Part shown: positions 8,229 to 42,529 of the stretch, in pieces | Layout: every line of letters starts with the position of its first letter | Numbering within the stretch: position 1 is the first letter of the stretch | Source: Candidatus Aenigmatarchaeota archaeon | GTDB lineage: Archaea; Aenigmatarchaeota; Aenigmatarchaeia; PWEA01; JAGHBM01 | NCBI GenBank assembly: GCA_021162085.1 | Contig: JAGGZI010000014.1 | Location: 1 to 44,281, forward strand | Reading direction: 5' to 3' | Length of the DNA: 44,281 bases | Notes under the pieces: model-generated | The model's database searches: none | What the model saw: the letters and a program-made list of their open reading frames with translations, nothing else | What the model was told of the DNA's origin: nothing | Translations under genes and position numbers: made by a program

Positions 8229-8267
8229 TCTTCTTCGAATTATTAAACTTAATTTCTTAAATATTCT

Positions 8268-8470
8268 TGGTGCCTGGGGTGGGTCAACCATTTCCCCAGA
8301 AAACGCTTTGCGTCTTCAAGTTTTGGGAAGTACAGAGACCTTTTTTGAAAAAGGGATCTGTTTTCGAACCCACGACCTCTAGATTTCTCACCATATCATA
8401 ATCCTCTCAGACTCATCACTCATAACTTTTGTTATGAGTCTAGCGCTCTAACCAACTGAGCTACCCAGGC
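8268..8470 (-). tRNA. tRNA-Met(CAT), elongator type, 2 introns (37/38: 8385-8432; T-loop ~59/60: 8285-8362)
   Basis: Spliced GCCTGGGTAGCTCAGTTGGTTAGAGCGCTAGACTCATA/ATCTAGAGGTCGTGGGTTCGAA/ACCCACCCCAGGCACCA; BHB helix CUCA/UGAG at the anticodon intron. Confidence 0.88.
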
Positions 8471-8533
8471 ATCTGAGATTCTAATTAGAGTTTCTTTTCA
8501 TACAACACTTTTCTTTGTGAAAGAAAAGGTTGT

Positions 8534-8796
8534 TGGTGGACCCGGGGAGATAAGGGAAACTTGAAAAGTTTCCAAGTTCTTTCCCTTGAGGCTTTCTTTT
8601 GAAGAAAGGCTCATTTGAACTCCCGACCTCTACGTAGCCCTTTTCCGCATACGCACAGAAGCGTTAACGGAAAATTTATCAGCGTAGCGCTCTAATTACC
8701 CACACTTTTCTTTTTCTCACAAACTTGACTGAAGTTTCTTTTCCCACAGTCTTTTCTTTGTGAAAGAAAAGCTGTTCCAAGCTGAGCTACGGGTCC
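8534..8796 (-). tRNA. tRNA-Ile(GAT), 3 introns (D-loop: 8696-8776; 37/38: 8636-8676; 59/60: 8551-8613)
   Basis: Spliced GGACCCGTAGCTCAGCTTGG/TTAGAGCGCTACGCTGATA/ACGTAGAGGTCGGGAGTTCAAA/TCTCCCCGGGTCCACCA forms a complete cloverleaf. Confidence 0.88.
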
Positions 8797-8949
8797 ATTG
8801 TAAATTAATTTTTATGCAATCTATAAAAAAGTTTCCCTTCCATTCAAGGCAATGTATACTCAAGACCTGAGAAAGAAATAAGGATAAAAATCGATGCCTT
8901 ACTACACACCGACATTTAAAAACAAAAAATTTTGGTGGACTTGTCGGGA

Positions 8950-9100
8950 CTCTCTCGAACCTGCAGGGGGCAAGCCCCCTTCAGTTTTACGGTATTCCTG
9001 ATATCTTCCCTTCCTTTTAAAATTGGCAAACTTTCAGTTTGCCCAAAATTGTTTCTTTGGGAAATACAAAAACCTTTCTTTCAAAAGAAAGGGATTTGTC
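8950..9100 (-). repeat. T-loop intron of tRNA-Ala, near-identical to the tRNA-Arg T-loop intron (42244-42397)
   Basis: About 100 consecutive identical nt from ttcagttttacggtattcc to aaaacctttcttt. Confidence 0.95.
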
Positions 9101-9133
9101 TTTGAACCCGAGACCTCCGCCGCTCTCAGACCA

Positions 9134-9287
9134 TTCACCAAGCCAGTTTCCGTTGACGTCTTGAGATTTTATCTCAAGTATTTGGAACATTGAGTTCCAA
9201 AACTTTACGCCGAGTAAAGGGTCATCCAAGTTTTCTGACTTCACCAAGCCAGTTTCCGTTGACGCTTTACGCCGAGTAAAGGGTCAT
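9134..9287. repeat. 48-bp direct repeat inside the tRNA-Ala anticodon intron (9240-9287 intact; 9134-9225 interrupted by a 44-bp insert at 9159-9202)
   Basis: ttcaccaagccagtttccgttgacg|ctttacgccgagtaaagggtcat is present twice. Confidence 0.95.
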
Positions 9288-9393
9288 GCGAAGGCGGCGC
9301 TCTTCCAACTGAGCTACAAGCCCATAATTAATTTTTCCTATCAATAATAGTTTTCTTTCGTACAACTCTTTCTTTTTCTAAAAGAAAGGTTGT

Positions 9394-9662: not shown

Positions 9663-9747
9663 ATGATTAAATTTATGATATTTTTCTAAATATATTGATA
9701 TAGAAACATTTTTAAATCAATTCGCACTATTTTTATTAGGTGAAAAA

Positions 9748-10410: not shown

Positions 10411-10500
10411 GAATTCTTTTTCCCTTTTTTTAATTTTTATTTCAATTAGAATTAAATATATAAACTATTTTATTGTTTAATAAAATTAAGATGTGATTTT

Positions 10501-13439: not shown

Positions 13440-13476
13440 TAATCTTTTTTAATTTAATTATTACTTTTCTATTAAG

Positions 13477-14691: not shown

Positions 14692-14709
14692 TATGATTAC
14701 TACCTTTCT

Positions 14710-15183: not shown

Positions 15184-15218
15184 TATAACACCTCTTCAAA
15201 TTATTATGTATTTCTTCC

Positions 15219-15980: not shown

Positions 15981-16417
15981 TTTTTCACCTTTACCTCAGC
16001 TATATCGCCTATCGTGAGAGTATCCCCCTCCTGACGACCTGAAAATGATTCTTCCGTGTACTCCATGATTAGTTTTACCCCAAAGAATCTTTCGAGTTTT
16101 TTTGCTAAATCCATTGTTGGGGTGAGTTCACCTCTTTCTATTCTTGCTATGACACTTTCCCTTTCCTTTAATTTCTCTGCAAGCTCTTTTCTTGTCAGCC
16201 CAAGTTTTTCTCGCTCCCTCTTTACTATCTGTGGGCAACGCGGATCGATGTACTTCGAATTGTCCGATATCTCAACCTTTCTTTTCTTTGGTTTTATTTG
16301 AACCGTTTCATTGACCACTTCACCCAGTTTTGCGCACTCGTCACATACATCCAATAGAACTCCATCTATTATGGCTTTCTTTGTAGCTTTTCTACCACAA
16401 ATTTCGCAATCAGTCAT
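15977..16417 (-). CDS. Multiprotein bridging factor aMBF1 (Zn ribbon plus HTH)
   Basis: CEICG...VCDECAKLG, Cro-type HTH, C-terminal LTIGD. Confidence 0.9.
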   Translation of the reverse strand: MTDCEICGRKATKKAIIDGVLLDVCDECAKLGEVVNETVQIKPKKRKVEISDNSKYIDPRCPQIVKREREKLGLTRKELAEKLKERESVIARIERGELTPTMDLAKKLERFFGVKLIMEYTEESFSGRQEGDTLTIGDIAEVKVKK

Positions 16418-16535
16418 AAGGACACTCTTTGCAGAAGGATATAAAATCTATGGTGACTTAAATTTAAATGTTTATCATACGCGTCTTTTAAAGATTTAAA
16501 TAAAATTCTATTAATAAGAGTTATAAGGTGAATTT

Positions 16536-19500: not shown

Positions 19501-19577
19501 TTGAAGAACCTTTCAATGGTAAACTTTTAAGATATAAAGACAGGAAAATAAAATTTGAAATAGAAGTGATCAAATGA
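16536..19577 (+). CDS. ileS: Isoleucine--tRNA ligase (IleRS2-type)
   Basis: DGPITAN, GFDCHGLPIE, WTTTPWTL, GTGIVHIAP, DWNISRRRYWG; signature motifs GVHH and EMHKS. Confidence 0.95.
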   Translation: MYDPRKVEKEMLEFWEKNKIFEKLAKKNKGKKKFRFIDGPITANNPMGVHHGYARTLKDLYQRYKAMQGFDERFQNGFDCHGLPIEVEVEKELGLKSKRDIEKYGINNFIEKCKERINKITKIQTKQSIRLGQWMDWKNSYYTMSDENILHIWYFLKKCYEKGWIYKGHKVLPWCPRCGTSLSQHEVSEGYKTLTHKTVFVKFPLIGKKNEYLLVWTTTPWTLSSNVAAAVNPDIMYIKAEKDGEIYYLSKKTSKVLGEHKVLEELKGSEMVGWKYNGPYDELEAQRGIEHVVVPWGDVGEEDGTGIVHIAPGCGEEDFELGKKLGLKAISPLDEYGNFIKGFGWLTGMYVKDVRDKIFEDLKKKKMLFKIGEITHRYPTCWRCKEELVFRMTDSWFIKVDEIRDKLIEEANNVFWSPGHGKKLMNDWLKNMGDWNISRRRYWGLPIPIWICEDCGEMTVIGSLEELKEKAISGMDNLKDLHKPQIDNVILKCPKCGGKMKRIPEVGDCWLDAGIVPFSTLKYLEDRNYWKEWFPAEFVSEMREQVRLWFYSMLFMSVVLENRAPYEKVLMFEKVYDEKGQEMHKSGKNVIWFDDAIEKIGADVMRWMYAKTNLTQNVLFGYNIGKEIRKNLDYLMNISKYIKTFMNGPPEKIGEDLEKEDRWILSRLESTKKVVYESLENLIPYAAARNLEKFFINDISRNYIKLVRDRIKEDKRVPNILYLIFLDTLKLMAPFTPFITEYIYQDLFRKFEGKESIHLFDWPAHDDEKIDTKIEDMFEVMMKIIETSNAIRQEEGIRLRHPVKEMIISGPEKLEEYVKYLEPLLKRVGNVKNVKFEKAKMNYEVKLNYPVVGPKYGKQVKDMEKALKNMNGEEIVNEIENNNFVKILDKKLKREDLVIRVSSPEEGKGFIVNEVSGVVFLDLEETPEIFEERLIKELIRNVQQARKDNKLTIEQKIKLILSSDESTEDVIKGWLEKIKKSTGAIEILFEEPFNGKLLRYKDRKIKFEIEVIK

Positions 19578-20155
19578 AGGATAAACCAAAATTAAAAGAT
19601 CTCATAGAATTAGCAGAAAAAATAAAAGACAAAGACCTGAGAGAAAAAACCATAGAACTTCTAAAGGACCCAAAATTATCAAACAATTGGGAATACAAAG
19701 CTACGAACATTGAAAGGGTGCCAGCATGGATCGGCGCGCATCATGACTATGCTGGAGGTTTGATAGAACACACCCTCTCAGTCACAGAGTTGTCCATAAT
19801 GGCAGCAAATTATCTAAAAGAAAGGTATGACAAAAAAATAAATATGGACTTTGTGATAGCAGGAGCGCTCCTCCACGACATTGGAAAATTATTTGAGATG
19901 AGAGAAGAGAACAATGAATTCAAATTCAACGAATTCTTAATCGACCACATAAGACTTGGGGGCTCCGAGTTATATGCCCGCGGATTTCCAGAGGAAGTTG
20001 TACACATAGTTTTTGCCCATGCTGGAGGAGATGTACCGAGAACGATTGAGGCAAAGATAGTTGACATCATGGATAACCTGGACTCGACTGTTGAGAGTTT
20101 CGGTAAAGAAACACATTCACTCATTTACTTGTTGGGAGATAGTCTGAATGTTTAG
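19574..20155 (+). CDS. HD-domain phosphohydrolase (YhaM-like HDIG)
   Basis: HHDYAGGLIEHT, ALLHDIGK, PRTIEAKIV..MD. Confidence 0.85.
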   Translation: MKDKPKLKDLIELAEKIKDKDLREKTIELLKDPKLSNNWEYKATNIERVPAWIGAHHDYAGGLIEHTLSVTELSIMAANYLKERYDKKINMDFVIAGALLHDIGKLFEMREENNEFKFNEFLIDHIRLGGSELYARGFPEEVVHIVFAHAGGDVPRTIEAKIVDIMDNLDSTVESFGKETHSLIYLLGDSLNV

Positions 20156-21212
20156 ACAAGGACTCCTTGAGAAAGCGCTAAAGTTCATATCTTTGCTGGA
20201 AAATTACTCTCTAGTATATCACAAGGATGCTGATGGCGTTTGTTCCGCGGTACTACTGTCTAAGGTAAAAAATCCAACCCTGTCGTCTCCAAACGACTCA
20301 AATGGAATTAAAATATCTGATTCGTTGATGGAGAGACTAAATGAATTACCAAAAGCAGTTTTTACAGATCTACCCGTGGACCAGATGCCATACGAAAGAA
20401 TAAAGGTAAAAACTCTTGTTATAGACCATCATATTCCCACAAGAGATCTGAACAATTATGATAACTTCATTCATTTGAACCCTAGATTTAAGATGCCAAA
20501 TGCGTATCTTCCAGCATCATACCTTGTGTACAGAATACTGGAAAAAAAATACAAGAACATCAAAAAGTATTCCTGGATAGCCGGTGTTGGTGTGGTGGGA
20601 GATAGGGGAACGAATAGTTGCAGAGATTTGATTGATGTAATAGAAAGGGACTATCCAGAGCTTCTCATAAAAGACAAATATAATCCTAAAAAAATGTGGA
20701 GCAGCGAGCTTGGATTTTTTTCTAAACTAATTGACTCAAGCAAAGGAGTAAAAGGGATAAGGGGAATAATGAAGTCATATGAAATTTTCTTAAATGCTGA
20801 AAAACCAGAGGACATTAAAAATACAGAGTTAATGAATTATTATCGCAGGTTTCAGAGAGAGTTAGAGAATCTCATAATGGACTTCAGATATCACTCAGAG
20901 TTCTTCCCTGAAACAAATGCCTACATGTACAGAATTGAGAGTAAGTACAATATAGAGTCCACCCTATCCACAGTGCTTTCAGAAAAAAATCCTGATGCTG
21001 CCATATTTGTCTACAGAATTAAAAATGGATTACATATCAGTGCGAGATGTCAGACAGGAAGAATAAATGTCGCAGATGTCCTTAGAAATTTGTCAGAGGG
21101 GATTGGCTCTGGTGGCGGACATCCACAGGCAGCAGCAGCAAGCATCAGGAAGGAACATGCAAATAGATTTCTTGAGAGACTAAGAAACTATCTGGAGGGA
21201 ATGAAAGGTTAA
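20148..21212 (+). CDS. DHH/DHHA1 family phosphoesterase (RecJ-like)
   Basis: HKDADG, TD, IDHH, SAR, GGGHPQAA. Confidence 0.9.
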   Translation: MFRQGLLEKALKFISLLENYSLVYHKDADGVCSAVLLSKVKNPTLSSPNDSNGIKISDSLMERLNELPKAVFTDLPVDQMPYERIKVKTLVIDHHIPTRDLNNYDNFIHLNPRFKMPNAYLPASYLVYRILEKKYKNIKKYSWIAGVGVVGDRGTNSCRDLIDVIERDYPELLIKDKYNPKKMWSSELGFFSKLIDSSKGVKGIRGIMKSYEIFLNAEKPEDIKNTELMNYYRRFQRELENLIMDFRYHSEFFPETNAYMYRIESKYNIESTLSTVLSEKNPDAAIFVYRIKNGLHISARCQTGRINVADVLRNLSEGIGSGGGHPQAAAASIRKEHANRFLERLRNYLEGMKG

Positions 21213-21871
21213 AATCTTCCTAGAATAAATGCGTGGTCCTTTTCATACGGGTCCAGTTTCTTCCAGTCCATTACTTTAACTCCATGGGACTTGAGTTTTT
21301 CGATCTCGCTTTTATAAACTTCATCAGGAGATTTTGTAACATCTATACTTCTTGACTTGACTGCAAGCATGATATACTCACCATGATCAAGAAACATATT
21401 ACAATTCCTTATAGCTATTTCTGTTTCATCTGGTTGCGCTATATCACAATAAACGACGTCAACTTTCTCAATCAAATCCTCATAACTGCTTGGTTTTCTT
21501 GCATCCGCTAGAATTGGAATTAAATTTTTTCTTTGCTTACACAACTTTAAAAATTCTCTCATCATTCTTTCTGAAAACTCAACAGAGTAAATAATCCCTG
21601 TTTCACCAACTATATCGCTTATGTGGGACGGAGTTGTCCCGGTTGCAGAACCAAGGTAAAGAACTTTCATTCCCTTGCTAAGTGGTACTTGCTTTAGTCC
21701 CTTCTTTATTGCCGCAGCTAATTTTGACCTGATTGGCACCCATTCCCTGTATTCATCCTTCCCTATCTTTATCAAACTCTCGCCATACACTCTTTGTCCA
21801 GGAACGAGGTTCTTCGTAAATATTTTTCCTGAAGACTTGTCAAGAAAGATTCCATAAGAAATTTCCTTCAT
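21209..21871 (-). CDS. flpA: Fibrillarin (box C/D 2'-O-methyltransferase)
   Basis: VYGE, RSKLAAAI, VLYLGSATGTTPSHISD, DIAQPD. Confidence 0.96.
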   Translation of the reverse strand: MKEISYGIFLDKSSGKIFTKNLVPGQRVYGESLIKIGKDEYREWVPIRSKLAAAIKKGLKQVPLSKGMKVLYLGSATGTTPSHISDIVGETGIIYSVEFSERMMREFLKLCKQRKNLIPILADARKPSSYEDLIEKVDVVYCDIAQPDETEIAIRNCNMFLDHGEYIMLAVKSRSIDVTKSPDEVYKSEIEKLKSHGVKVMDWKKLDPYEKDHAFILGRF

Positions 21872-21879
21872 AGAGACAC

Positions 21880-22062
21880 CTATTTGGCATGCCTCTTCAG
21901 GTTAACTATGTATCCAGCTATCTTATTTCTCAATTTCTTTGATTCTATAAGATCTTTAAGAAATTCCTTGTTGCTTATGAAATCTGAGCCAAGATCATCT
22001 GGATACATATTTAGGAGTTCCCTACTTATGTTCTTTATCGAAGTTGTTCTTATCCTACCCAT
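21880..22062 (-). CDS. rps17e: 30S ribosomal protein S17e
   Basis: MGRIRT...DF..NK...SKKLRNKIAGY. Confidence 0.93.
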   Translation of the reverse strand: MGRIRTTSIKNISRELLNMYPDDLGSDFISNKEFLKDLIESKKLRNKIAGYIVNLKRHAK

Positions 22063-22173
22063 AGAGTCACCTTCCTGAGTATCTTAGATTAATTTTAAAA
22101 ATCATCTATATATAGATTACATTTAAATTTATTTTCTAAACTTTTTATACGTTTGACTGCATTATTGATTAAT

Positions 22174-23214
22174 ATGCTGTACATAACTTATTCATTGTTG
22201 GGTATCTTCGCACTTGATCAGAGAAAGAATATTGTAGAGTACAGTCCTTTCCCGAAGAAACCAGAAAAAATAATACAGAGACTCGAAGAAGTTAAAAGAG
22301 GTGAAATAGTTCCAGAACTTGAGAAAATTCTTGGAAGGATAAAAGACAAAAACATAGTCACAAATATTCCATTTAAGCATAATAACTTTCATATTGAGTA
22401 TAAAGAAAAAATCTCCTCGATAGAATTCTTAAAATCAAGAGATACCGCCCTGAAACTTGGCTTCGTGAACAGTATTGAGGAATTCAACAAACTTCTTTCT
22501 GATATACAAATCACAAGAACAAAGAATGAAATAAAACTAATGGAAAGAAGGGATAGGATAGCCATGCAGGTGGTTTCTGCTATAGATGACTTAACAGACA
22601 TAACAAACAGACTATCTGAAAGACTTCATGAATGGTATGGTCTTTATTATCCAGAACTTGAAAGAAAGATAAAGGACAACAAAAAATATTCAGAAAGAAT
22701 ATCAGAGAATCCAATAAGAGACTATGAAAAAACCATTGGTATGGAATTTGAGAAGGGAGATATTGATGCCATTGAAAAATTTGCTAAAGAAACAAAGAAC
22801 ATATTTGGGCTAAAAACAGTCCTGGAAAAATATATAGATGAACTGATGTTAAGTATAGCGCCAAATGTCACATCAATAACAGGATCCATACTTGGGGCAA
22901 AGCTAATATTGCTTGCAGGTGGACTTGAAAAATTAGCAAGGTTACCCTCTTCAACTATACAGCTTCTGGGAGCAGAAAAAGCTCTGTTCAGATTTATGAA
23001 ATCCAAGAAAAAAAGTAGGCCACCCAAGTATGGTGTTTTATTCCTTCACCCCGAAGTAACCAATGCTCCACCGGAGCTCAAAGGAAAAGTAGCAAGAATA
23101 ATAGCAAGTCTTATTTCAAAGGCAGCAAAGACGGACTTTTATGCAAAGGAAGATAGGTCAGAAATTTATAAAAGAGAATTTGAGAGAAAAATGAGAGAAA
23201 TTAAAGAGAATTAA
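22174..23214 (+). CDS. nop5: Nop5 (Nop56/58) box C/D RNP protein
   Basis: ERLHEWYGLYYPEL, APN, PSSTIQLLGAEKALF, PPKYGVLF; ATG 22174 preferred over TTG 22153. Confidence 0.93.
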   Translation: MLYITYSLLGIFALDQRKNIVEYSPFPKKPEKIIQRLEEVKRGEIVPELEKILGRIKDKNIVTNIPFKHNNFHIEYKEKISSIEFLKSRDTALKLGFVNSIEEFNKLLSDIQITRTKNEIKLMERRDRIAMQVVSAIDDLTDITNRLSERLHEWYGLYYPELERKIKDNKKYSERISENPIRDYEKTIGMEFEKGDIDAIEKFAKETKNIFGLKTVLEKYIDELMLSIAPNVTSITGSILGAKLILLAGGLEKLARLPSSTIQLLGAEKALFRFMKSKKKSRPPKYGVLFLHPEVTNAPPELKGKVARIIASLISKAAKTDFYAKEDRSEIYKREFERKMREIKEN

Positions 23215-23223
23215 CATTTATGC

Positions 23224-24015
23224 TCATTTTATTCTTATCAATGTACCCACATTCTCTCCTAACAATGCTTTCTCTGTCGTACCTTTCTTGCTTGCATTAT
23301 ATACTACACTTTCTATGCCCTTCACATCTTTTATCAACTTATTTAATTTCTCCTTCATACCACCCGTCACATCAACAGAAGTAGAACCAGAGACCATGCC
23401 AGGAATGGTTTTGTAATTTCTGTTGTTTATTTCCTTTATCAAACTGGCGCCTTTAAACAACTTTGGGTCCTTGTCAAAAATTCCATCCGTGTCTGTTCCC
23501 ATTAATATTCTCCCTGCACCTAACTTTCTAGCAAGATGGGGAACTATATCATCTCCCGATATAATCGAGGTACCTCTACTCAAATCAACAACCATATCAC
23601 CATACAAAAGAGGTATTACATCCATTTTGAGCAAATTTTTTATATGTTCCGTTTCGAAGGAGATTATGTTTCCATTGTTTTGAACTACGCAACTCATTGG
23701 ATGTATTGGAACAGAACTCACATTACTCTTTAAAAACTCCTCCCATATGATCCTGTTCAAATCTTCAACAAGTTTGTGAACCATCGCCATTCCGAACTTC
23801 GTCTTTTCGTCCTTTATTCCGTATTCAAGTCCGTATCTTCTTACAGGCATGTGACCAAAGCTTCCAGCGCCATTGACAAGAATTAGCTTAAATTTTCCAT
23901 TTTCCTTGGCGTTGATTATCTCCTTAACGAGTCTCTTTATGACCTTTCTCCTTGGAGTTGCGTATCTATCTTTATCCGTTATTACACTTCCTCCTAACTT
24001 TAAGATCTGTAACAT
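23224..24015 (-). CDS. ipk: Isopentenyl phosphate kinase
   Basis: LKLGGSVITDK, GAGSFGH, GDMV, SGDD, DVTGGM. Confidence 0.92.
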   Translation of the reverse strand: MLQILKLGGSVITDKDRYATPRRKVIKRLVKEIINAKENGKFKLILVNGAGSFGHMPVRRYGLEYGIKDEKTKFGMAMVHKLVEDLNRIIWEEFLKSNVSSVPIHPMSCVVQNNGNIISFETEHIKNLLKMDVIPLLYGDMVVDLSRGTSIISGDDIVPHLARKLGAGRILMGTDTDGIFDKDPKLFKGASLIKEINNRNYKTIPGMVSGSTSVDVTGGMKEKLNKLIKDVKGIESVVYNASKKGTTEKALLGENVGTLIRIK

Positions 24016-24020
24016 AATAA

Positions 24021-25016
24021 TCAGAATAGGTGTTTTTTGCTTAAATAAGCTCCTCTTCCAGGTCTTGCCTCAACCAATTCTTTAATTGACTTTAGTTCCT
24101 TCAATCTTTTCTTTATCTTCTTGACATCTTCCTTCAAGCAAAGAACCTTAACATTTGGTCCAGCATCTATGGTGAAGTAGCACTCCAATCCATCCCTTCT
24201 TAACTCCATCACTTTATGCATCACCTCCAGCGTGCTTGGCATCCAGTATATCAGAGAAGGTACTGTAGAAATCATCAAAGCATGCATCTTCAAACAATTA
24301 TGTTCCGACGTTTTCCCCAAGTTTGTGAAATCTCTCTTCCGTATTGAACTCTTAACAATTCTTAAATCATTTTTTATTGTTTTCAGCCATCCTGTATAAA
24401 ACGGAGAAGTTTTCACAGTATATCTCATTCCATCGGCACTACTGATTTTTTTCTCTAAGGTCGTCAATATAGATACCAATATCCTAAAATCTTTCCAATG
24501 TGTCTCATTTGCTATCTGTTCTGCATAACTATCTGATCCATCACTTCTCTTTCCTCTATGCCACTCAACGAAACCTCCAAACAAAGACCTTGCAGCTGAG
24601 CCTGATCCAGACATACGAGCCAAAATTGATACCTCTCTATCACTAAGATTCAAGTCCAGTGCATTTGAGCATGCTAAAGCCAGAGCAGAGAACCCAGATG
24701 CACTGCTTGCAAGCCCGGCCGCTGTAGGGAAATTGTTTTCACTCACAACTCTAACAGGAGATTCTTCACCGGAGATTCTTCTTATAAAATTGATAAAATT
24801 AAGTGCTCTCTTGAGTTTCTCACCAGTCACTCTTTCTCCGTTGATTACGATTTCATCCTTTTTGTAATCCCTGGAGAACTCTACGGTAGTCTTGGTTAAA
24901 AGCTTATCCAGAGTTACGGATATACTCCCGTTGTATGGAAGAACAAGTTTGTCATCTCTTCTACCCCAGTACTTAATCAATGCTATGTTAGATGGCGCTA
25001 CTGCAGTTACTTTCAT
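24021..25016 (-). CDS. mvaD: Diphospho-/phosphomevalonate decarboxylase (GHMP family)
   Basis: NIALIKYWG, NNFPTAAGLASSAS, SGSAARS, TIDAGPNV. Confidence 0.9.
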   Translation of the reverse strand: MKVTAVAPSNIALIKYWGRRDDKLVLPYNGSISVTLDKLLTKTTVEFSRDYKKDEIVINGERVTGEKLKRALNFINFIRRISGEESPVRVVSENNFPTAAGLASSASGFSALALACSNALDLNLSDREVSILARMSGSGSAARSLFGGFVEWHRGKRSDGSDSYAEQIANETHWKDFRILVSILTTLEKKISSADGMRYTVKTSPFYTGWLKTIKNDLRIVKSSIRKRDFTNLGKTSEHNCLKMHALMISTVPSLIYWMPSTLEVMHKVMELRRDGLECYFTIDAGPNVKVLCLKEDVKKIKKRLKELKSIKELVEARPGRGAYLSKKHLF

Positions 25017-25086
25017 AGTCTCTTGATTACTTGAATATTGTATTTAAAAATAACTACGACGAATGTCTTGAAAATCGACAAATTAT

Positions 25087-25408
25087 TGGTGCGGAGGGCC
25101 GGATTCTCACACGACTCACAGGAACCATAGATTCCAGTTCTCCCTCACTCTTGACCACTCCTTCAAAATTGTTAGGAAAACTCTTTTCGAGTTTTCCAAG
25201 TTCTTTCCTTTGATGCTTTCATATTTTGGTTGGGTTGCCCGGACTGGTCCAGACTATGGAACCCAACCTATATTACGAAAGGCTCATTCGAACCGACGAA
25301 CCCACTAAGGGACCAGATCTTGAGTATCACCTATCATCTGAGTATCAAAACTCAAGACTGAAGCTGGCGCCTTTGGTCCACTTAGATTGACCACTTGGCT
25401 ACCTCCGC
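25087..25408 (-). tRNA. tRNA-Leu(CAA), 3 non-canonical introns (D-loop: 25373-25386; 30/31: 25326-25363; 59/60: 25104-25286)
   Basis: Spliced GCGGAGGTAGCCAAGTGGTCAA/AGGCGCCAG/ACTCAAGATCTGGTCCCTTAGTGGGTTCGTCGGTTCGAA/TCCGGCCCTCCGCACCA; long variable arm; BHB helices GGUC/GACC, CGCC/GGUG, UUCG/UGAG. Confidence 0.88.
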
Positions 25409-25445
25409 ATTAATAAAAAGAATTATAGAAATAGAAATAAATAAT

Positions 25446-25928
25446 TTATTTAATTTGGGCAAGTTCACTTCTCAAGTGTTTTAGTTCCTCTTCTAATTCG
25501 TATATTTCCTCACCAACTCTCGACTCTGGTTCTTGAGGGAATTTGACCTTTCCTGGTTCTACAAATATTTCGTCCAAAGAAATCAATGTGTTGGTAAATT
25601 CGGCAGTAGTATTCTTTATTCTTGTTATTAAGTCGGACCTTATTCCATCCAACTCATTTGAGAATGATATCAATCTTGTCAAAGTCTTCAGGTAAGTTTT
25701 CAATTCACTTAATTTTTTTATGACATCTTCATACTTGTCTATTTTAACGAATAAGGGAGCAAAAGATTTTGGAGCCTCTTGAATCTGCTTGTTTAAACGA
25801 ACTGGCTGAGAAACCTGTGGTGGAGTAACTTCTGGAGGTGGCGGAGGAGGTAAATTCTTGTTTTCAATCTTATTCTTTATATCCTCTATCTCCTTGCTTT
25901 TCTCGTTACTCTTCTTCCAGAAAGCCAT
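25446..25928 (-). CDS. Hypothetical coiled-coil protein with Pro-rich linker
   Basis: PPPPPP linker, APLFVKIDKY motif, coiled-coil C-terminus. Confidence 0.75.
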   Translation of the reverse strand: MAFWKKSNEKSKEIEDIKNKIENKNLPPPPPPEVTPPQVSQPVRLNKQIQEAPKSFAPLFVKIDKYEDVIKKLSELKTYLKTLTRLISFSNELDGIRSDLITRIKNTTAEFTNTLISLDEIFVEPGKVKFPQEPESRVGEEIYELEEELKHLRSELAQIK

Positions 25929-25990
25929 ACTACCACATAATAATTTAAAAAATGATTATATAAATCTTTTTCTTTTTATTTTGATAAAAT

Positions 25991-26228
25991 TGGTGCGCCA
26001 GCCGGGACTTCCACCCTACGGAGGGACACCAAGGTTTCCCTCCTTATGGGTATATTCTCCCTTCCTTTTAAAATTGGCAAAAGCGAAGCTTTTGCAAGTT
26101 CTTTCCTATTGCCCTTTCTTCTGAAGAAAGGCAATTTTGAACCCGGGTCTCGAGCTGTCTCCACTCCAACTCATTTGACTGAGTAAATTGCTTGGGAAGC
26201 TCGGGTCCTACCACTAGACTACTGGCGC
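25991..26228 (-). tRNA. tRNA-Gly(CCC), 2 introns (37/38: 26157-26192; 59/60: 26008-26135)
   Basis: Spliced GCGCCAGTAGTCTAGTGGTAGGACCCGAGCTTCCCA/AGCTCGAGACCCGGGTTCAAA/TCCCGGCTGGCGCACCA; BHB helices UUCC/GGAG and UUCA/UGGA. Confidence 0.92.
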
Positions 26229-26273
26229 ACAACAAATATTTATAATTTTCTCTTTATTATATCTTAGGGTGTT

Positions 26274-27362
26274 TTGTTGAGAGTAAAAACAAAAGATGGT
26301 GTTAGAGATTACAGAACTGTTTGGTTTGATGAAAAAATTAATAGTTTAAAAATGATAAATCAGCCACTTCTCCCACATAGGTTTGATATAGTTTCTCTTG
26401 AAAATTATAAAGAAACTGCATCCGCAATTAAGAATATGGTGGTTAGAGGTGCCGGCGCAATAGGTGCAACGGCTGCGTATGGATTAGCTCAGGGTTGCTT
26501 GGAATACAAAGGTAATGACATCGATGAGTTATGGAAGCATATTGAAAAGGTTTATGAAACTCTTAAAAATACGAGGCCAACTGCTGTAGACCTAATAAAT
26601 GGAATGAATTATGTGAAATCCAAAATGGAAGAAGGTAACTCAGTAAGAGAATTCAAGGAACTCTCATTAGAGGCTGCACAGAAATTCGCAGATAAACAAG
26701 TTGAAGAGTGTAAAAAGATAGGAAATTACGGAGAAAAACTTATAAAAGACGGTTCAAGAATTCTCACACATTGTAATGCAGGTTGGCTTGCATTTGTGGA
26801 CTGGGGTTCTGCAACTGCACCGATGTATCATGCAAAAAGAAATGGAAAAGACATATTTGTTTTTGTTGATGAAACCAGACCAAGACTCCAAGGTGCAAGA
26901 TTGACTGCATGGGAATTATCACAGGAGAGTATAGAACATGACATAATAGCCGATAATGCAGCAGGGTATTATATGAAGAATGACGAGATAGATATGGTAA
27001 TAGTTGGTGCCGATAGAGTCATCGGAAAAACTGGTGATGTTGCGAACAAGATAGGCACATATGAAAAGGCTGTGTTGGCAAGAGAAAATGGAATTCCATT
27101 TTACGTAGCTATACCAATGAGCACGATAGATTGGAATTTAAAATCTGGTGATGAAATACCAATTGAAGAGAGAGATGAAAAGGAAGTTCTCTACGTGTGG
27201 GGCATAGACGACAATGGAAATAGAAAGAGGGTGATGATAGCAAACAAGGATAGCCATGCTCGAAATCCAGCGTTTGATGTAACTCCTGCAGAGTACATCA
27301 CTGGTATAATAACATCCAAAGGAGTGTTCAAGCCTGATGAACTAATAGAATTAAAGAAGTAA
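26274..27362 (+). CDS. mtnA: S-methyl-5-thioribose-1-phosphate isomerase (eIF-2B alpha/beta/delta family)
   Basis: MVVRGAGAIG, TRPTAVDL, LTHCNAG, ETRPRLQGARLTAWEL, NKIGTY, NPAFDVTP. Confidence 0.92.
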   Translation: MLRVKTKDGVRDYRTVWFDEKINSLKMINQPLLPHRFDIVSLENYKETASAIKNMVVRGAGAIGATAAYGLAQGCLEYKGNDIDELWKHIEKVYETLKNTRPTAVDLINGMNYVKSKMEEGNSVREFKELSLEAAQKFADKQVEECKKIGNYGEKLIKDGSRILTHCNAGWLAFVDWGSATAPMYHAKRNGKDIFVFVDETRPRLQGARLTAWELSQESIEHDIIADNAAGYYMKNDEIDMVIVGADRVIGKTGDVANKIGTYEKAVLARENGIPFYVAIPMSTIDWNLKSGDEIPIEERDEKEVLYVWGIDDNGNRKRVMIANKDSHARNPAFDVTPAEYITGIITSKGVFKPDELIELKK

Positions 27363-27656
27363 TTAGCTGAAAATTCCTCCAAATCCTTCCATCGCTGATT
27401 CTTCCATTTCTTTCATTTTCTTTATGACCGTTTCCTTTTCTTCTCCATCAAGCTCTTGAGCAAGTTCCCTAAGTCTTTCTTCTGCCTCTTTGCATGCTTC
27501 TTCGGAGCCATCTATTAATAAATAGTCCCCCTCTTTTTCTAGACCCAGAGACACATTATCTCTAAATGTTATGCTTTGCCTTCCTATTGGATCTTCCTTA
27601 ACAACATCTTTTACCTTGTTTAAATTTTCCTTTTCAACGAAAAATACTACCTGCAT
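27363..27656 (-). CDS. Hypothetical acidic protein
   Basis: 97-aa ORF with GAGGTG RBS, ends in GFGGIFS. Confidence 0.75.
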   Translation of the reverse strand: MQVVFFVEKENLNKVKDVVKEDPIGRQSITFRDNVSLGLEKEGDYLLIDGSEEACKEAEERLRELAQELDGEEKETVIKKMKEMEESAMEGFGGIFS

Positions 27657-27685
27657 GCTAACACCTCTAAAAATATAAGATTATT

Positions 27686-28846
27686 TCATTTATAAACTTT
27701 TAATGACTTCTTTATTCTTTTGATTGCTTCATCCAGTTCATCTATTGTTGCATTTCCACAGGAGAATCTCATATGTCTTTTGCCTCCTGGGCCGAAAGCG
27801 CTTCCTGGAACACCGGCAACACCATTCTTTATCAAAACATCTGAAAATTTCATATCATCAATATTGTCGGGAAGTTTTGGAAAGACATAAAAAGTTGAAT
27901 CCGGCTTTTGGACCTTAAATCCCAAGTCCTCAAGTTCATCGGATAAATGATTCACGTTCTTCTTGTAGCGCGGAAGGACATCATCTGTATATCTCTTTAT
28001 TAATCCATTTTCAAGAGATCTTGCATACGCATGCACGACCGATGATGGAGCTGAAGGATTTATTATTTGAACCTTTGGCAACAATTCTTTAATTCTTTCC
28101 CCATTTTTTGATGAGATCCATCCAAGCCTCAGGTCTGGCATGAACTTCTTTGATGCTGAATTTACCTGAATGGCGTTGTCGTCATATGATAATATTGAAT
28201 GATGCTTCCTACCATCAAAAATCAGTTCATCGTAAACTTCATCCGAAACAATTCCAAATTCATAATCATTGGATAGGTCTGATATGAGTTTCAATTCTTC
28301 TTCTCCATATCGTGTTCCAGTTGGATTGTTTGGTGTTGCGAAGACAAACATCTTTGGTTTTTCTTTCTCGACTTTTTTCTTCAAGTCTTCCTCATCAAGA
28401 GAAAAATCTGGATTTGTTTTAACATACCCTACTTTTATTCCCTCAGGCATCATATCGCTAATGGATTTTATCTGCCCTTCGTAAAGCAAGAATGTTACAT
28501 CAGGAAGAAGAACAGTGTCTCCATCCTCGAGGTAAGAAACAAAAATTGAAAAGAGCGCTCTGCTTGCACCCCCATCCATTATGCAGAAATTTTCCTTTGG
28601 AATATCGATGTCATGTCTTTCTTTGTAATGTTTAGAGAAAACTTTTCTTGAGTAATCCGAACCACATGTTGGTGCATAACCACCATTATCGACTTCATTA
28701 ATATACCCATAAAATTCCTCTATCATATCTCTCTTGGGTTTCTCCGGGTCCCCCCTCGCAAGACTTATCGTACCGGGAGGCATATCAGAAATTATCTTCC
28801 TTATTATCGTTTGGGATCTTCCCTTGTAGTCGTAGTTTGGCCTCAT
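27686..28846 (-). CDS. Class I/II PLP-dependent aminotransferase
   Basis: TPNNPTG, SDEVY, SASKKF..LRLGW, PGSAFG..RFS. Confidence 0.92.
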   Translation of the reverse strand: MRPNYDYKGRSQTIIRKIISDMPPGTISLARGDPEKPKRDMIEEFYGYINEVDNGGYAPTCGSDYSRKVFSKHYKERHDIDIPKENFCIMDGGASRALFSIFVSYLEDGDTVLLPDVTFLLYEGQIKSISDMMPEGIKVGYVKTNPDFSLDEEDLKKKVEKEKPKMFVFATPNNPTGTRYGEEELKLISDLSNDYEFGIVSDEVYDELIFDGRKHHSILSYDDNAIQVNSASKKFMPDLRLGWISSKNGERIKELLPKVQIINPSAPSSVVHAYARSLENGLIKRYTDDVLPRYKKNVNHLSDELEDLGFKVQKPDSTFYVFPKLPDNIDDMKFSDVLIKNGVAGVPGSAFGPGGKRHMRFSCGNATIDELDEAIKRIKKSLKVYK

Positions 28847-28891
28847 ATCAAAAATAATGAACGTAAAATTTTAAATAGATGGAATTAGAAT

Positions 28892-29130
28892 TGGAGCCCC
28901 GGGCCGGACTCTCACCCTACGGAGAGACAAAACGATGGACTTAGGCAGAGCCTAAGTCAGTTTGTCGTTTCCCTCCTTATGGGAATATCCTCCCTTCCTT
29001 TAAAAAATATAGGAAAACTCTTCGAGTTTTCCAAGTTCTTTCCCTTGAGGCTTTCTTCTGAAGAAAGGCTCATTTGAACCGGCGATCTTCCGCTTACGAG
29101 GCGGACGCATTACCACTATGCTACCGAGGC
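28892..29130 (-). tRNA. tRNA-Thr(CGT), 1 long T-loop intron (59/60: 28909-29072)
   Basis: Spliced GCCTCGGTAGCATAGTGGTAATGCGTCCGCCTCGTAAGCGGAAGATCGCCGGTTCAAA/TCCGGCCCGGGGCTCCA; BHB helix UUCA/UGAG. Confidence 0.93.
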
Positions 29131-37715: not shown

Positions 37716-37810
37716 TAATTAAAGTTTTCTTTTCTAAAGTCTTTTCTTTTGATTTGCGACTAAAGTCGCAAATTTTGGGATGCAATCCCAAAATGAAAAG
37801 AAAAGCTTTA
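37716..37810 (-). repeat. Intergenic copy of the tRNA-intron hairpin module with a nested twin-hairpin insert
   Basis: taattaaagttttcttttc-taaagtcttttcttttg[insert 37752-37793]tgaaaagaaaagcttta; matches 8482-8533, 8734-8775 and 9350-9393. Confidence 0.8.
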
Positions 37811-42226: not shown

Positions 42227-42529
42227 TGGTGCCCCTGCCGGGACTTTCACGAACCCGCAAGGAACCTACGGTTCCTTTCAGTTTTACGGTATTCCTGATA
42301 TCTTCCCTTCCTTTTAAAATTGGCAAACTTTCAGTTTGCCCAAAATTGTTTCTTTGGGAAATACAAAAACCTTTCTTTTGAAAGAAAGGGATTTGTCTTT
42401 GAACCCGGGTCCCAGCCTTTCTACTTTGCGCTGAGTAAAGGGCCACTTCTACAAGCCAGTTTGATGAATCTTTATGCCGAGTAAAGATTCTCCGCAGGGC
42501 TGTATCCTATCCAGCTAGACTACAGGGGC
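42227..42529 (-). tRNA. tRNA-Arg(GCG), 2 composite introns (37/38: 42419-42491; 59/60: 42244-42397)
   Basis: Spliced GCCCCTGTAGTCTAGCTGGATAGGATACAGCCCTGCGG/AGGCTGGGACCCGGGTTCAAA/TCCCGGCAGGGGCACCA; BHB helices CUGC/GUAG and UUCA/UGAA. Confidence 0.9.
42244..42397 (-). repeat. T-loop intron of tRNA-Arg, near-identical to the tRNA-Ala T-loop intron (8950-9100)
   Basis: Direct alignment; differences are confined to hairpin tips and the splice-junction end. Confidence 0.95.

What the first reader, a model, noticed from the sequence alone, without database searches (positions are those of the whole stretch)
26008..29072. T-loop introns are combinatorial assemblies of two interchangeable modules
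On the + strand, a left module (ct(c/t)(t/c)caccctacggag...ctcccttcctttaaaa) is shared by Gly (26008-~26072) and Thr (28909-~29007), with variants in Ala, Arg and Leu. A right module (ggaaaactc..gagttttccaagttctttcccttgaggctttctt.tgaagaaaggctca) is shared by Thr, Leu and, more diverged, Gly, and it occurs alone in Ile (8551-8613). Ala and Arg carry a second right-module type (cccaaaa..tttgggaaatacaaaaacctttc..aaagggatttgtc), a variant of which stands alone in Met (8285-8362). Inference: the long introns arose by successive insertion of independent units at the same site and may be excised stepwise.
Basis: partly seen in the sequence, partly recalled or inferred. Interest (0 to 1): 0.85.

Follow-up and report, generated by a model that had tools for sequence, protein, structure and literature searches.

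The report
Modular T-loop introns in archaeal tRNAs
Nearly every tRNA gene of this tiny archaeon is split in its T-loop by an intron assembled from a small set of shuffled hairpin modules, some carrying a sequence signature of a triple helix, which offers a rare view of how tRNA introns spread and change.

Summary
All tRNA genes of the window lie on the minus strand. The claimed module similarities are far above chance (z 8-19).

The picture is wider than two modules. At least ten segment families occur: two or more 5' types, two 3' types, double hairpins and loop inserts. They are nested, one is found in both orientations, and they also sit in D-loop, 53/54 and anticodon-loop introns, rRNA, tRNA spacers and one mRNA spacer.

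The organism is an Aenigmarchaeota-like DPANN archaeon. At least 36 tRNA genes have the T-loop intron and 2 lack it. Only 2 of 19 orthologous tRNAs in a sister species keep the same intron content, while 12 match a different tRNA's intron.

The outer junctions fit a relaxed bulge-helix-bulge motif in which the universal T-loop pairs with the intron tail. Six nested-insert junctions show none, so stepwise excision is unsupported.

New here: the commonest module (Y-hairpin-R plus R') has R' as the exact mirror of R. This intrastrand-triplex signature is found in 72 of 371 genomes of the class. No RNA data exist.

The parts
25991..26228 (-). tRNA-Gly(CCC) gene with encoded CCA. It has two introns: anticodon-loop 37/38 (about 26156-26191) and T-loop 59/60.
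   Evidence: Read by eye. ARAGORN accepts the sequence once the T-loop intron is removed. Coordinates.
26008..26135 (-). T-loop (59/60) intron of tRNA-Gly, 128 nt. The 5' module (YRR core plus hairpin 2) is 26078-26135. The 3' module B is 26008-26077.
   Evidence: Folded with its T-stem flanks (window 26004-26142) it gives z = -4.06 against 200 shuffles. The H helix TTCA/TGGA pairs 4 of 4.
28892..29130 (-). tRNA-Thr(CGT) gene. Its only intron is in the T-loop.
   Evidence: The Rfam tRNA model matches only 29075-29130, the part upstream of the intron.
28909..29072 (-). T-loop intron of tRNA-Thr, 164 nt. The 5' module is 29013-29072. The 3' module B is 28909-29012 and carries a 42-nt insert in its loop (28927-28968).
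   Evidence: H helix TTCA/TGAG pairs 4 of 4. The same tRNA in the sister genome G001 has only a 12-nt intron here.
25087..25408 (-). tRNA-Leu(CAG) gene. Its T-loop intron is 25104-25286 (183 nt), with a 55-nt hairpin (25221-25275) nested in the loop of the first hairpin.
8933..9323 (-). tRNA-Ala(CGC) gene. Its T-loop intron is 8950-9100 (151 nt): 5' module A' at 9027-9100 and 3' module B' at 8950-9026. It also has a 164-nt anticodon-loop intron.
8534..8796 (-). tRNA-Ile(GAT) gene with three introns: D-loop (holds a YRR unit), 37/38, and T-loop 8551-8613 (63 nt, 5' module alone).
   Evidence: This T-loop intron has 0 of 4 H pairs.
8268..8470 (-). tRNA-Met(CAT) gene. Its T-loop intron is 8285-8362 (78 nt, A''-type 5' module alone). 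It also has a 37/38 intron.
It has a D-loop insert at about 9581-9646 (module-B-like), a 53/54 intron at 9456-9542 (full YRR element), and a 59/60 intron at 9411-9449.
   Evidence: H helices read by eye: TTCA/TGGA at 59/60 and CCCG/CGGG at 53/54.
42227..42529 (-). tRNA-Arg(GCG) gene. Its T-loop intron is 42244-42397 (154 nt; A' at 42324-42397, B' at 42244-42323).
   Evidence: The G001 tRNA-Gly(TCC) intron is 99% covered by this intron.
9342..9388 (-). YRR unit in the spacer directly after the CCA of tRNA-Pro and before tRNA-Ala.
8482..8528 (-). YRR unit in the spacer directly after the CCA of tRNA-Ile and before tRNA-Met.
37722..37804 (-). Intergenic copy of a YRR hairpin with a nested double hairpin. 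It lies between a stop codon and the start of a peptidyl-tRNA-hydrolase-like ORF.
   Evidence: The double hairpin matches the seed at 97.8% over 45 nt; that seed is 100% identical in the Ala(TGC) T-loop intron and in the 23S rRNA gene. The ORF name rests on my reading of the translation and was not searched.

Best explanation
These are archaeal protein-spliced tRNA introns of the relaxed bulge-helix-bulge kind (hBH / BHL), sitting between T-loop nucleotides 59 and 60.

How the intron is recognised (inferred):
- The outer helix is the T-stem itself.
- The 4-bp central helix forms between the nearly universal T-loop bases 54-57 (TTCA/TTCG) and the four bases that precede the last two bases of the intron.
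- The same intron tail therefore fits any tRNA. That would make the intron portable and explain why almost every tRNA has one.
- The whole intron is cut out in one step by the single alpha-type EndA, which has a DPANN-type loop insertion, and the exons are joined by RtcB.

What fills the intron: everything between the first base and the tail is dispensable cargo. In this compact genome it has become a safe place for short structured repeat modules:
- the YRR unit: pyrimidine strand, loop, purine strand, then the mirror image of the purine strand;
- module B/B' with the same three-tract logic in reverse order;
- double hairpins and GC hairpins.

Modules are gained, lost, nested into each other's loops and exchanged between tRNA genes at the DNA level. 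Likely routes are recombination or gene conversion between paralogous introns, possibly promoted by the triplex-prone tracts.

Shown: the anatomy, the motif statistics, the enzymes' presence, the exchange between genes, and the mirror covariation.
Inferred: the splicing itself, the one-step excision, and the DNA-level mechanism.
For: 1. Removing the insert restores tRNAs. ARAGORN finds 0 tRNAs in the window and 4 in the genome. It gives 47 calls at about 35 sites after in-silico removal of T-loop inserts. A second finder plus inspection gives 34 tRNAs with a 59/60 insert and 2 without (Trp, one on C16). Two more with 53/54 plus 59/60 introns were found by eye.

2. Motif. At register 59/60 the H helix pairs 4/4 in 17 of 34 introns and at least 3/4 in 26 of 34 (mean 3.15). 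Twelve shifted registers give means of 0.18-2.26. Five of the weak-H introns have a 3-8 bp inner helix and a 7x7 internal loop, which is exact BHB spacing. G001 repeats the pattern: 4/4 in 10 and 3/4 in 9 of 23 rows, one of which is a false tRNA. C at the first tail position goes with G57 (6 of 22) more than with A57 (2 of 35), Fisher p 0.045. A relative's T-loop intron shows a strict hBHBh' (L080). The His anticodon-loop intron is a strict BHB and serves as positive control.

3. Enzymes. One EndA gene is present. It is 182 aa with a 6-residue insertion relative to M. jannaschii EndA, shared with the N. equitans alpha subunit. Passages of PMC5829648 link such a C-terminal loop in DPANN alpha4 enzymes to more disrupted tRNA genes. 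RtcB is present.

4. Cargo is dispensable. G001 orthologues of Thr(CGT) and Arg(TCG) have 12-nt introns, against 164 and 52 nt here.

5. Exchange. Of 19 clear orthologue pairs between G000 and G001, the orthologue's intron covers at least 50% in 2, part in 3, and nothing in 14. A non-orthologous tRNA's intron covers at least 45% in 12. Modules are 92-100% identical between unrelated tRNAs.

6. Nested inserts have no BHB of their own in 6 of 6 junctions tested.

7. All 33 mirror-type YRR units of the genome lie in tRNA or rRNA genes or their spacers.
Against: - No RNA data exist, so splicing, its position (59/60 versus 58/59) and one-step excision are unproven.
- 8 of 34 introns pair 2 or fewer of 4 in the H helix; 5 of these 8 (Ala_TGC, Glu_CTC, Asp, Ser_CGA, Cys_GCA) have the 3-8 bp inner helix. 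The remaining three (Ile, Arg-CCT, Val) pair 0-1 of 4, with inner helices of 4, 3 and 2 bp.
- Most introns lack an inner helix formed between the intron ends, so the 5' site sits at a multi-branch junction.
- Alpha4-type EndA is classically strict for BHB; broad specificity here is inferred from one paper's correlation.
- All 33 YRR units are in sense orientation, none antisense. A purely DNA-level selfish repeat does not predict this; it points to an RNA-level or transcription-coupled constraint.
- No reverse transcriptase, Y1 transposase or TnpB was found, so the exchange mechanism is unknown. The genome is only 87.6% complete.
- Boundaries of four of the six nested inserts were set by an imperfect alignment.
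Confidence: 0.6

Rival explanations
1. One reading: the long introns are tandem or nested independent introns. Each arrived by its own insertion at the T-loop site, each has its own splice signals, and they are removed one after another.
For: Modules occur alone and in several combinations. Some tRNAs do hold two separate introns in one T-arm, at 53/54 and 59/60, which must both be spliced.
Against: None of six nested-insert junctions has an outer helix next to a 4-bp helix. Module B lies between hairpin 2 and the intron tail, not after a complete first intron: the A-only introns' own tail is not retained inside the composites. No B-only T-loop intron was seen in G000, G001 or G007.
Confidence: 0.08
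2. The modules are functional RNA elements kept by selection. The YRR and B units would fold as RNA triple-helix hairpins that help the precursor fold, stabilise the excised and probably circularised intron, or bind a processing factor. Their spread would then reflect function rather than selfishness.
For: Strict sense orientation, 33 of 33. Mirror covariation is kept across many families of the class although the linkers differ. The outer stem of hairpin 1 and hairpin 2 show compensatory changes: six different outer-stem pairs. The Gly intron folds with z -4.06. Units also stand in tRNA trailers and rRNA, regions that are processed.
Against: Orthologous tRNAs do well with 12-nt introns or quite different modules. 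[quoted passage not shown] In family f1 only 1-3 nt separate the covarying outer stem from R', and in L080 the BHB inner helix closes around the unit, so hairpin or BHB fold and triplex fold look mutually exclusive (my steric reasoning). Module B works in both orientations.
Confidence: 0.2
3. The inserts are not removed. They stay in the mature tRNA as expansion segments at structurally tolerant places (T-loop 59/60, variable part of the D-loop).
For: Nucleotides 59 and 60 bulge out of the T-loop fold and the D-loop has variable-length regions (textbook knowledge, recalled). No RNA data exclude this.
Against: The same genes carry inserts at 37/38 and 53/54 that cannot be tolerated. EndA and RtcB are present. 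The junction statistics fit the splicing motif. Insert content is not conserved between orthologues.
Confidence: 0.03
4. Assembly or binning artefact: repeats wrongly joined into tRNA genes of a metagenome-assembled genome.
For: Contigs of G000 and G001 often end inside these repeats.
Against: The same architecture is found in three genomes read in full, one of them a closed 832,879-bp contig, and in other families. Exon halves always match into a proper cloverleaf.
Confidence: 0.01

Closest known systems
Non-canonical and multiple BHB introns of archaeal tRNA genes and their 'large-scale intron transposition' in Thermoproteales (Fujishima et al. 2010, seen only as summarised in passages of PMC4090602 and PMC4033280)
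   Same: Protein-spliced introns at non-canonical positions. Relaxed hBH/BHL motifs. Near-identical intron sequences in tRNAs of different identity. The mechanism is unknown and thought to act at DNA level. The trait co-occurs with an EndA carrying an extra loop.
   Different: A different phylum (DPANN, Aenigmarchaeota-like). One position (59/60) is occupied in almost all tRNAs. Introns are up to 196 nt in this genome (202 nt in G001) and built as mosaics of nested modules. The modules also occur in rRNA, spacers and an mRNA spacer. The reviews give three introns per tRNA as the known maximum, and three is also what I counted here.
Potential intrastrand triplex (PIT) elements / BoxC / TMECO repeats of bacteria (Holder et al. 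2015, PMC4666352; abstract and passages read)
   Same: A short dispersed repeat with the order pyrimidine tract, loop, purine tract, loop, second purine tract (purine motif). Many copies per genome. Linked there to local genome rearrangement.
   Different: A/T-rich rather than G/C-rich tracts. Archaeal. Embedded in the removable parts of stable-RNA genes, always on the sense strand. Triplex formation is untested here. R' covaries with R through several run-length classes.
Mosaic repeat families such as REP/BIME of E. coli and BOX elements of pneumococci (recalled, no call)
   Same: Short hairpin modules combined in variable order and orientation.
   Different: Those are extragenic. Here the modules fill introns, and no dedicated transposase was found.
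[quoted passage not shown]
   Same: Most tRNA genes are interrupted. Standard annotators miss many inserts. Inserts sit at BHB-compatible sites.
   Different: [quoted passage not shown] Here copying between tRNA genes is plain.
Functional cargo in archaeal tRNA introns: the box C/D RNA in the tRNA-Trp intron (passage of PMC4090602)
   Same: A structured unit nested inside a tRNA intron.
   Different: I saw no C/D boxes in the T-loop modules, and no Rfam family matched them.

Membership tests
Archaeal protein-spliced (BHB) tRNA introns | The insert interrupts a tRNA gene, and its removal restores a canonical cloverleaf. | tested here: met
   ARAGORN calls tRNAs only after in-silico removal. T-stem and acceptor stem pair across the insert in 34 genes.
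Archaeal protein-spliced (BHB) tRNA introns | Bulge-helix-bulge or relaxed (hBH, BHL) motif at the exon-intron junctions. | tested here: inconclusive
   The outer helix is present in 34 of 34. The 4-bp helix pairs 4/4 in 17 and at least 3/4 in 26 of 34, clearly above shifted registers. An inner helix is mostly absent, and 3 introns have a near-absent central helix (0-1 of 4 pairs).
Archaeal protein-spliced (BHB) tRNA introns | Splicing endonuclease and RNA ligase are encoded. | tested here: met
   EndA: PF01974 97.4 bits, with solved relatives. RtcB: PF01139 584 bits.
Archaeal protein-spliced (BHB) tRNA introns | The intron is excised and the exons ligated in the cell. | not testable with these tools
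   No RNA run holds the locus.
Intron transposition between tRNA genes (Thermoproteales type) | Near-identical introns in tRNAs of different identity, and different introns in orthologous tRNAs. | tested here: met
   92-100% identical modules in unrelated tRNAs. 14 of 19 orthologue pairs share nothing, while 12 of 19 match another tRNA's intron.
Potential intrastrand triplex (PIT) repeats | Three tracts on one strand in which the third is the mirror of the purine strand of a Y/R hairpin. | tested here: met
   Run lengths are equal in mirror order in 24 of 33 and 18 of 21 units, against shuffle means of 6.2 and 11.4. The class-wide pattern is found in 72 of 371 genomes, with a backwards control of 2 hits. 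The direct-repeat version gives 0 hits where the mirror version gives 22.
Potential intrastrand triplex (PIT) repeats | A triple helix actually forms (in DNA or RNA). | not testable with these tools
   Needs melting, CD, NMR or footprinting.
MITE / IS-derived mobile elements | Terminal inverted repeats, target-site duplication, and a cognate transposase in the genome. | tested here: not met
   No target duplication at the clean 44-nt insert. No RVT_1, Y1_Tnp or TnpB-type match. The genome is 87.6% complete.
Self-splicing group I / II introns or other described RNA families | A match to a curated covariance model. | tested here: not met
   Rfam gathering run: only a partial tRNA hit. E-value run: 5 weak hits, none on the modules.

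The most novel reading that the evidence does not exclude
The YRR and B modules are genuine intramolecular triple-helix elements conserved across a whole archaeal class. They are always placed with the purine-motif version on the transcribed-sense (non-template) strand of tRNA and rRNA genes.

Two outcomes would both be new. Either they fold as RNA, which would be the first natural family of purine-motif RNA triplexes. Or they fold on the displaced non-template DNA strand of these heavily transcribed genes and act as recombination hot spots that copy, nest and swap intron pieces.

The second outcome would supply the long-sought mechanism by which protein-spliced tRNA introns spread. The T-loop would be the universal landing site, because its conserved bases pair with a generic intron tail.
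Probability: 0.3. Interest if true: 0.9.

Novelty: new variant of a known kind. Interest (0 to 1): 0.72.

Why it matters
How archaeal tRNA introns are gained and moved is an open question. The reviews read here call the mechanism unknown, and a 2026 Asgard census found no route.

This lineage offers an unusually clear case:
- one universal site;
- introns from 12 to about 200 nt at that site;
- near-identical pieces in unrelated tRNAs;
- wholesale replacement between sister species.

It suggests two testable ideas. First, an intron becomes portable when its splice motif uses only universally conserved exon bases. Second, spliced-out regions serve as refuges for short repeats in compact genomes.

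The mirror-repeat signature links intron turnover to triplex-prone DNA, or to an unexpected RNA triplex. It can be tested with oligonucleotides.

There is also a practical consequence. Standard tRNA finders report almost no tRNAs in these genomes (0 in this window), which distorts completeness and codon-usage inferences for DPANN genomes.

Tried and rejected
- RNA evidence. The look-up of sequencing runs listed 4 DNA runs of one study and no RNA holder.
- Read laying on window 8200-28199 with those 4 runs gave only short low-depth contigs. The joints seen (for example one skipping 9127-9286 with 21 other letters between) look like other organisms' tRNA genes. Nothing could be said about module presence/absence variants.
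- A general scan for BHB motifs over whole precursors was too permissive in this low-complexity sequence to judge internal junctions. I replaced it with a test at six defined insert junctions.
- ARAGORN with its intron option mis-assigns anticodons when several introns are present. Anticodons in this report were read by eye, and four tRNAs stayed unnamed (C41a, C44, C46, C47).
- A covariance model of the YRR unit was not built, because MAFFT could not align the run-length classes in register. IUPAC patterns were used instead.
- Hypotheses dropped:
  - C/D-box guide RNAs in the T-loop modules: no boxes seen.
  - K-turn or loop-E in module B: no matching consensus by eye.
  - IS200/IS605-type single-strand transposition into TTCAA: no transposase.
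  - R' pairing by Watson-Crick with any partner: the needed complement is absent from the RNA.
- The scan for purine-first hairpins was noisy. Only the module B/B' rows were used, as examples and not as a statistic.
- Literature searches found no paper describing T-loop introns or these modules in Aenigmarchaeota. The library lacks most subscription journals, and supplements were not opened.

Full report
WHAT IS THERE

The window is one whole contig (C23) of a 789,653-bp genome in 58 contigs with 37% G+C, 87.6% complete. Homologues of its splicing endonuclease are named Aenigmarchaeota / Aenigmatarchaeota by their sources. The DNA is held by four runs of one hydrothermal-vent metagenome study.

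ARAGORN finds no tRNA in the window. With its intron option it finds four in the whole genome. Rfam's tRNA model reaches its threshold once, at 29075-29130, and stops where the T-loop should continue.

Reading the minus strand shows why. The tRNA genes are complete, G+C-rich and end in an encoded CCA. After TTCAAA or TTCGAA of the T-loop, however, 39-183 foreign bases follow before the last T-loop base and the 3' half of the T-stem.

I wrote two finders:
- One pairs the T-stem across an insert and lets ARAGORN judge the spliced sequence.
- The other also demands a paired acceptor stem and CCA.

After inspection they give 34 tRNA genes with such an insert and two without: Trp, and one on contig C16. 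Two more, tRNA-Pro(GGG) in the window and one on C39, carry a second insert between positions 53 and 54. They were missed by the finders and found by eye. Many genes also have an anticodon-loop intron and/or a D-loop insert. The eight tRNA genes of the window span 2,228 nt.

CHECK OF THE OBSERVATION

Each claimed similarity is real:
- Thr-Ile 52 of 59 aligned positions identical (z 11.9).
- Thr-Leu 58 of 60 (z 10.7).
- Thr-Gly 46 of 55 (z 9.1).
- Ala-Arg 72 of 74 (z 19.4).
- Ala-Met 58 of 65 (z 8.1).
- For the other module, Gly-Thr 63 of 70 (z 11.1) and Ala-Arg 68 of 74 (z 14.9).
- Leu's 3' module is only weakly like the others (z about 3).

THE MODULES

Seeds cut from the introns and searched against the genome show a richer system than two modules.

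- A 41-nt core A is 100% identical in Gly(CCC), Gly(TCC) and a partial tRNA on C16. It is 97.6% identical in His and 95.1% in Gly(GCC).
- In two other tRNAs (C44, C46) core A is split 24|17 by an identical 44-nt double hairpin. Parts of that double hairpin recur in the anticodon-loop intron of Ala(CGC).
- A second 5' type, A', is 62/62 identical between Ala(CGC) and a tRNA on C41, and 97% identical in Arg(GCG) and a tRNA on C47.
- Module B occurs in Gly(CCC), Thr(CGT) and Arg(TCT). It occurs inverted at the 5' end of the Ser(GCT) intron, and by eye also in Phe(GAA) and in G001 Cys and another G001 tRNA.
- Module B' occurs in Ala(CGC), Arg(GCG), Thr(GGT), Glu(TTC), Ser(GCT) and C47.
- A 42-nt insert sits in the loop of B in Thr and Arg(TCT). 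In the C41 tRNA it follows A' directly, without the 5' half of B.
- A 45-nt double hairpin nested in a hairpin loop of the Ala(TGC) intron is 100% identical to a copy in the 23S rRNA gene. It is 97.8% identical to an intergenic copy in the window (37751-37795).

So 5' types {A, A', A'', inverted B} combine with 3' types {none, B, B', half of B}. Smaller hairpins are inserted into loops and junctions.

IS IT A SPLICEABLE INTRON?

In a bulge-helix-bulge motif, the four exon bases before the 5' bulge pair with the four intron bases before the 3' bulge, and an outer helix follows (textbook rule, recalled; the terms hBH and BHL appear in a passage of PMC4033280).

With the T-stem as outer helix this puts the intron at 59/60. 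It predicts that bases 54-57 pair with intron positions -6 to -3.
- They do so 4/4 in 17 of 34 introns and at least 3/4 in 26 of 34 (mean 3.15 pairs).
- Twelve shifted registers give means of 0.18 to 2.26.
- Five introns with a weak central helix instead have a 3-8 bp inner helix and a 7x7 internal loop, the exact BHB spacing.
- Three introns (Ile, Arg-CCT, Val) have a near-absent central helix (0-1 of 4 pairs).
- The pattern repeats in G001.
- C at the first tail position is enriched with G57 (Fisher p 0.045).
- A T-loop intron of another family shows a textbook hBHBh' (L080).
- The His anticodon-loop intron is a strict BHB.

The genome encodes one EndA and RtcB. Relative to M. jannaschii EndA (1a79), this EndA has six extra residues before the conserved KEH stretch, as does the N. 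equitans alpha subunit (3iey_A). Passages of PMC5829648 describe such a C-terminal 'L3' loop in DPANN alpha4 enzymes. They associate it with increased tRNA gene disruption, and note that tRNA sets of such lineages could not be fully predicted.

The Gly intron with its T-stem flanks (window 26004-26142) folds with z = -4.06.

STEPWISE EXCISION?

I took six nested inserts whose limits are defined by comparison with an uninterrupted relative. None has an outer helix beside a 4-bp helix within 4 nt of its ends. Two of the six have exact limits; the others have approximate ones.

Module B lies between hairpin 2 and the intron tail. The tail that A-only introns carry is not kept inside the composites. 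I therefore see no sign of internal splice sites. Without RNA data this cannot be excluded.

TURNOVER

I read the sister genome G001 in full (42 contigs, 674,381 bp). Nineteen tRNAs pair clearly with G000 tRNAs (at least 40 of 44 compared exon positions identical).
- The orthologue's T-loop intron covers at least half of the G001 intron in 2 pairs (Lys-CTT 1.00, Ser-CGA 0.60).
- It covers part in 3 pairs and nothing in 14.
- In 12 of the 19 pairs, the intron of a different G000 tRNA covers at least 45%. Examples: G001 Gly(TCC) matches G000 Arg(GCG) at 0.99; G001 Thr(GGT) matches G000 Thr(TGT) at 0.78; G001 Ile matches G000 Arg(TCG) at 0.76.
- The G001 Thr(CGT) and Arg(TCG) genes have 12-nt introns that keep just the tail.
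- The same two tRNAs lack the intron in both genomes.

In the closed genome G007 of another genus of the family (832,879 bp), my finder lists 32 CCA-encoding tRNA genes. Of these, 24 have a 59/60 intron of 30-135 nt and 8 have none. tRNAs without encoded CCA were not counted.

No reverse transcriptase, Y1 transposase or TnpB-type protein was found in G000.

THE MIRROR REPEAT

The commonest unit, which I call YRR, has four parts:
- a hairpin whose 5' strand is all pyrimidine (for example CCTTTCTT) and whose 3' strand is all purine (R);
- 3-12 further bases;
- a second purine tract R';
- then CTT.

R' is R read backwards, not a copy and not a complement. I selected units without reference to the mirror: a Y/R stem of at least 6 bp, a loop of 3-6 nt, and a purine run of at least 7 followed by C within 12 nt. 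This gave 33 unique units in G000 plus G001.
- The loop-side A-run of R equals the 3' A-run of R' in 24 of 33 units (shuffle mean 6.2, maximum 15 in 5,000).
- The inner A-runs agree in 18 of 21 (shuffle mean 11.4, P = 0.0002).
- Five run-length classes are all mirrored.
- Related copies inflate such counts, so the number of distinct classes is the safer figure.

Across 371 genomes of the class:
- The pattern Y-R-mirror(R) with inner run 3 occurs in 72 genomes of many families. The tool's backwards control gives 2 hits in all.
- The (4,3) mirror pattern occurs in 28 genomes with control 0.
- Its direct-repeat version gives 0 hits in five genomes that hold 22 mirror hits.

In other families the linker between R and R' is a small GC hairpin instead of the outer stem used here. 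There too the units sit in D-loop, anticodon-loop and T-loop introns, in 16S rRNA, in the spacer after 16S, in tRNA trailers and between genes.

Module B has the same logic in reverse order (R', linker, R, loop, Y). Examples by eye: AGGGAGG with GGAGGGA, GGGGGAA with AAGGGGG, AGGGGA with AGGGGA. Its inverted form gives the pyrimidine version.

No copying process makes mirror repeats, so selection on a three-strand interaction is the simplest reading. The order Y-loop-R-loop-R' is that of the 'potential intrastrand triplex' or BoxC repeats of bacteria (PMC4666352). There the repeats go with local genome rearrangement.

Two caveats follow:
- That paper states that purine-motif triplexes do not form in RNA.
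- In this family a covarying outer stem (ATTG/CAAT, TGAG/CTCA, ACAG/CTGT, ACTG/CAGT, CAAG/CTTG, AAAGC/GCTTT) leaves only 1-3 nt before R'. Extended hairpin and triplex therefore seem mutually exclusive (my reasoning).

Against a purely DNA-level view, all 33 mirror-type units of G000 are in sense orientation. The script assigned 26 to tRNA genes or flanks. By eye I placed 1 in 16S rRNA and 6 in tRNA genes outside my table. The 16S placement rests on my recall of a conserved 16S stretch. A triplex on the displaced non-template DNA strand would reconcile both facts, but this is speculation.

VERDICT

It is too simple in its count of two modules and a single insertion site, and it is unsupported on stepwise excision.

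The best reading is a portable, relaxed-BHB T-loop intron whose interior is a refuge for short structured repeats that are exchanged between tRNA genes.

Compared with what is known:
- Non-canonical and multiple introns and intron transposition in Thermoproteales: passages of PMC4090602 and PMC4033280. The original 2010 paper was not seen.
- Interrupted Asgard tRNA genes: abstract of 10.64898/2026.10.13.758758.

Against these, this is a new variant. It has near-universal occupation of one site, mosaic and nested composition, open evidence of copying between genes, and a class-wide triplex-type repeat.

Five literature searches found no description of it. The library lacks most subscription journals, and supplements were closed.

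Noticed in passing
window 9394-9662 (-): tRNA-Pro(GGG) with three inserts: a module-B-like unit in the D-loop (about 9581-9646), an 87-nt intron at 53/54 (9456-9542) holding a full YRR element with a fourth purine tract that repeats R, and a 39-nt intron at 59/60. The 53/54 intron tail CGGG can pair with CCCG before its 5' site.
   Followed up: partly
window 9342-9388 and 8482-8528 (-): YRR units stand directly after the encoded CCA of tRNA-Pro and tRNA-Ile, in the spacers to the next tRNA. A similar unit follows a tRNA on G000 contig C26 and tRNAs in other families, where some are followed by a T-run, which hints at a terminator-like role.
   Followed up: partly
window 37722-37804 (-): An 83-nt YRR hairpin with a nested double hairpin lies between the stop codon of one ORF and the ribosome-binding site of a peptidyl-tRNA-hydrolase-like ORF. 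Its double hairpin is 97.8% identical to the copies in the 23S rRNA gene (G000 C4:14669-14713) and in the Ala(TGC) T-loop intron, which are identical to each other.
   Followed up: partly
G000 contig C4:9931-9973 (+): A YRR unit with a GC mini-hairpin linker, the form typical of other families, sits inside what I take from recall to be the 16S rRNA gene, just upstream of the conserved GAATTGACGGGG stretch.
   Followed up: no
window about 8385-8435 (-): The anticodon-loop intron of tRNA-Met holds C-box-like (GTGATGA) and D-box-like (CTGA) motifs. It may be a box C/D guide RNA like the one known from tRNA-Trp introns.
   Followed up: no
window about 9130-9290 (-); also the Arg(GCG) gene 42227-42529: Anticodon-loop introns have their own repeat family: a CTTTAC-loop-GTAAAG hairpin followed by CAACGGAAACTGGCTTGGTGAA. 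It is present twice in the 164-nt Ala(CGC) intron and again in Arg(GCG) and Arg(CCT).
   Followed up: no
G001 contigs C20 and C17 (loci L039, L036): tRNA-Thr(CGT) and tRNA-Arg(TCG) of the sister species have 12-nt T-loop introns that keep only the tail pairing with 54-57. This is a bulge-helix-loop form and may be the 'empty' state of the intron.
   Followed up: partly
L019 (G005:C53:3400-3799, minus strand): A module-rich T-loop insert is flanked by a 5' T-stem half (GGGAG) and a 3' half (CGCAC) that do not pair. This could be a chimeric or rearranged tRNA gene, or a further intron. Unexplained.
   Followed up: no
L079 (G222:C1:25820-26470, minus strand): In a tRNA-Ile D-loop intron of another family, the third tract with its linker (about 19 nt) is tandemly repeated four times after one YRR hairpin.
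   Followed up: no
L013 (G000:C51:17341-20619): The only EndA gene lies about 0.8 kb downstream of the tRNA-Asn / tRNA-Phe pair. Its reading frame overlaps the end of a zinc-metalloprotease-like ORF.
   Followed up: no
G000 and G001 contig ends (e.g. G000 C16 end, C51 start; G001 C23:61-96, C34 start): Several contigs break inside tRNA genes or YRR units. The repeats therefore limit assembly and the tRNA census is incomplete.
   Followed up: no
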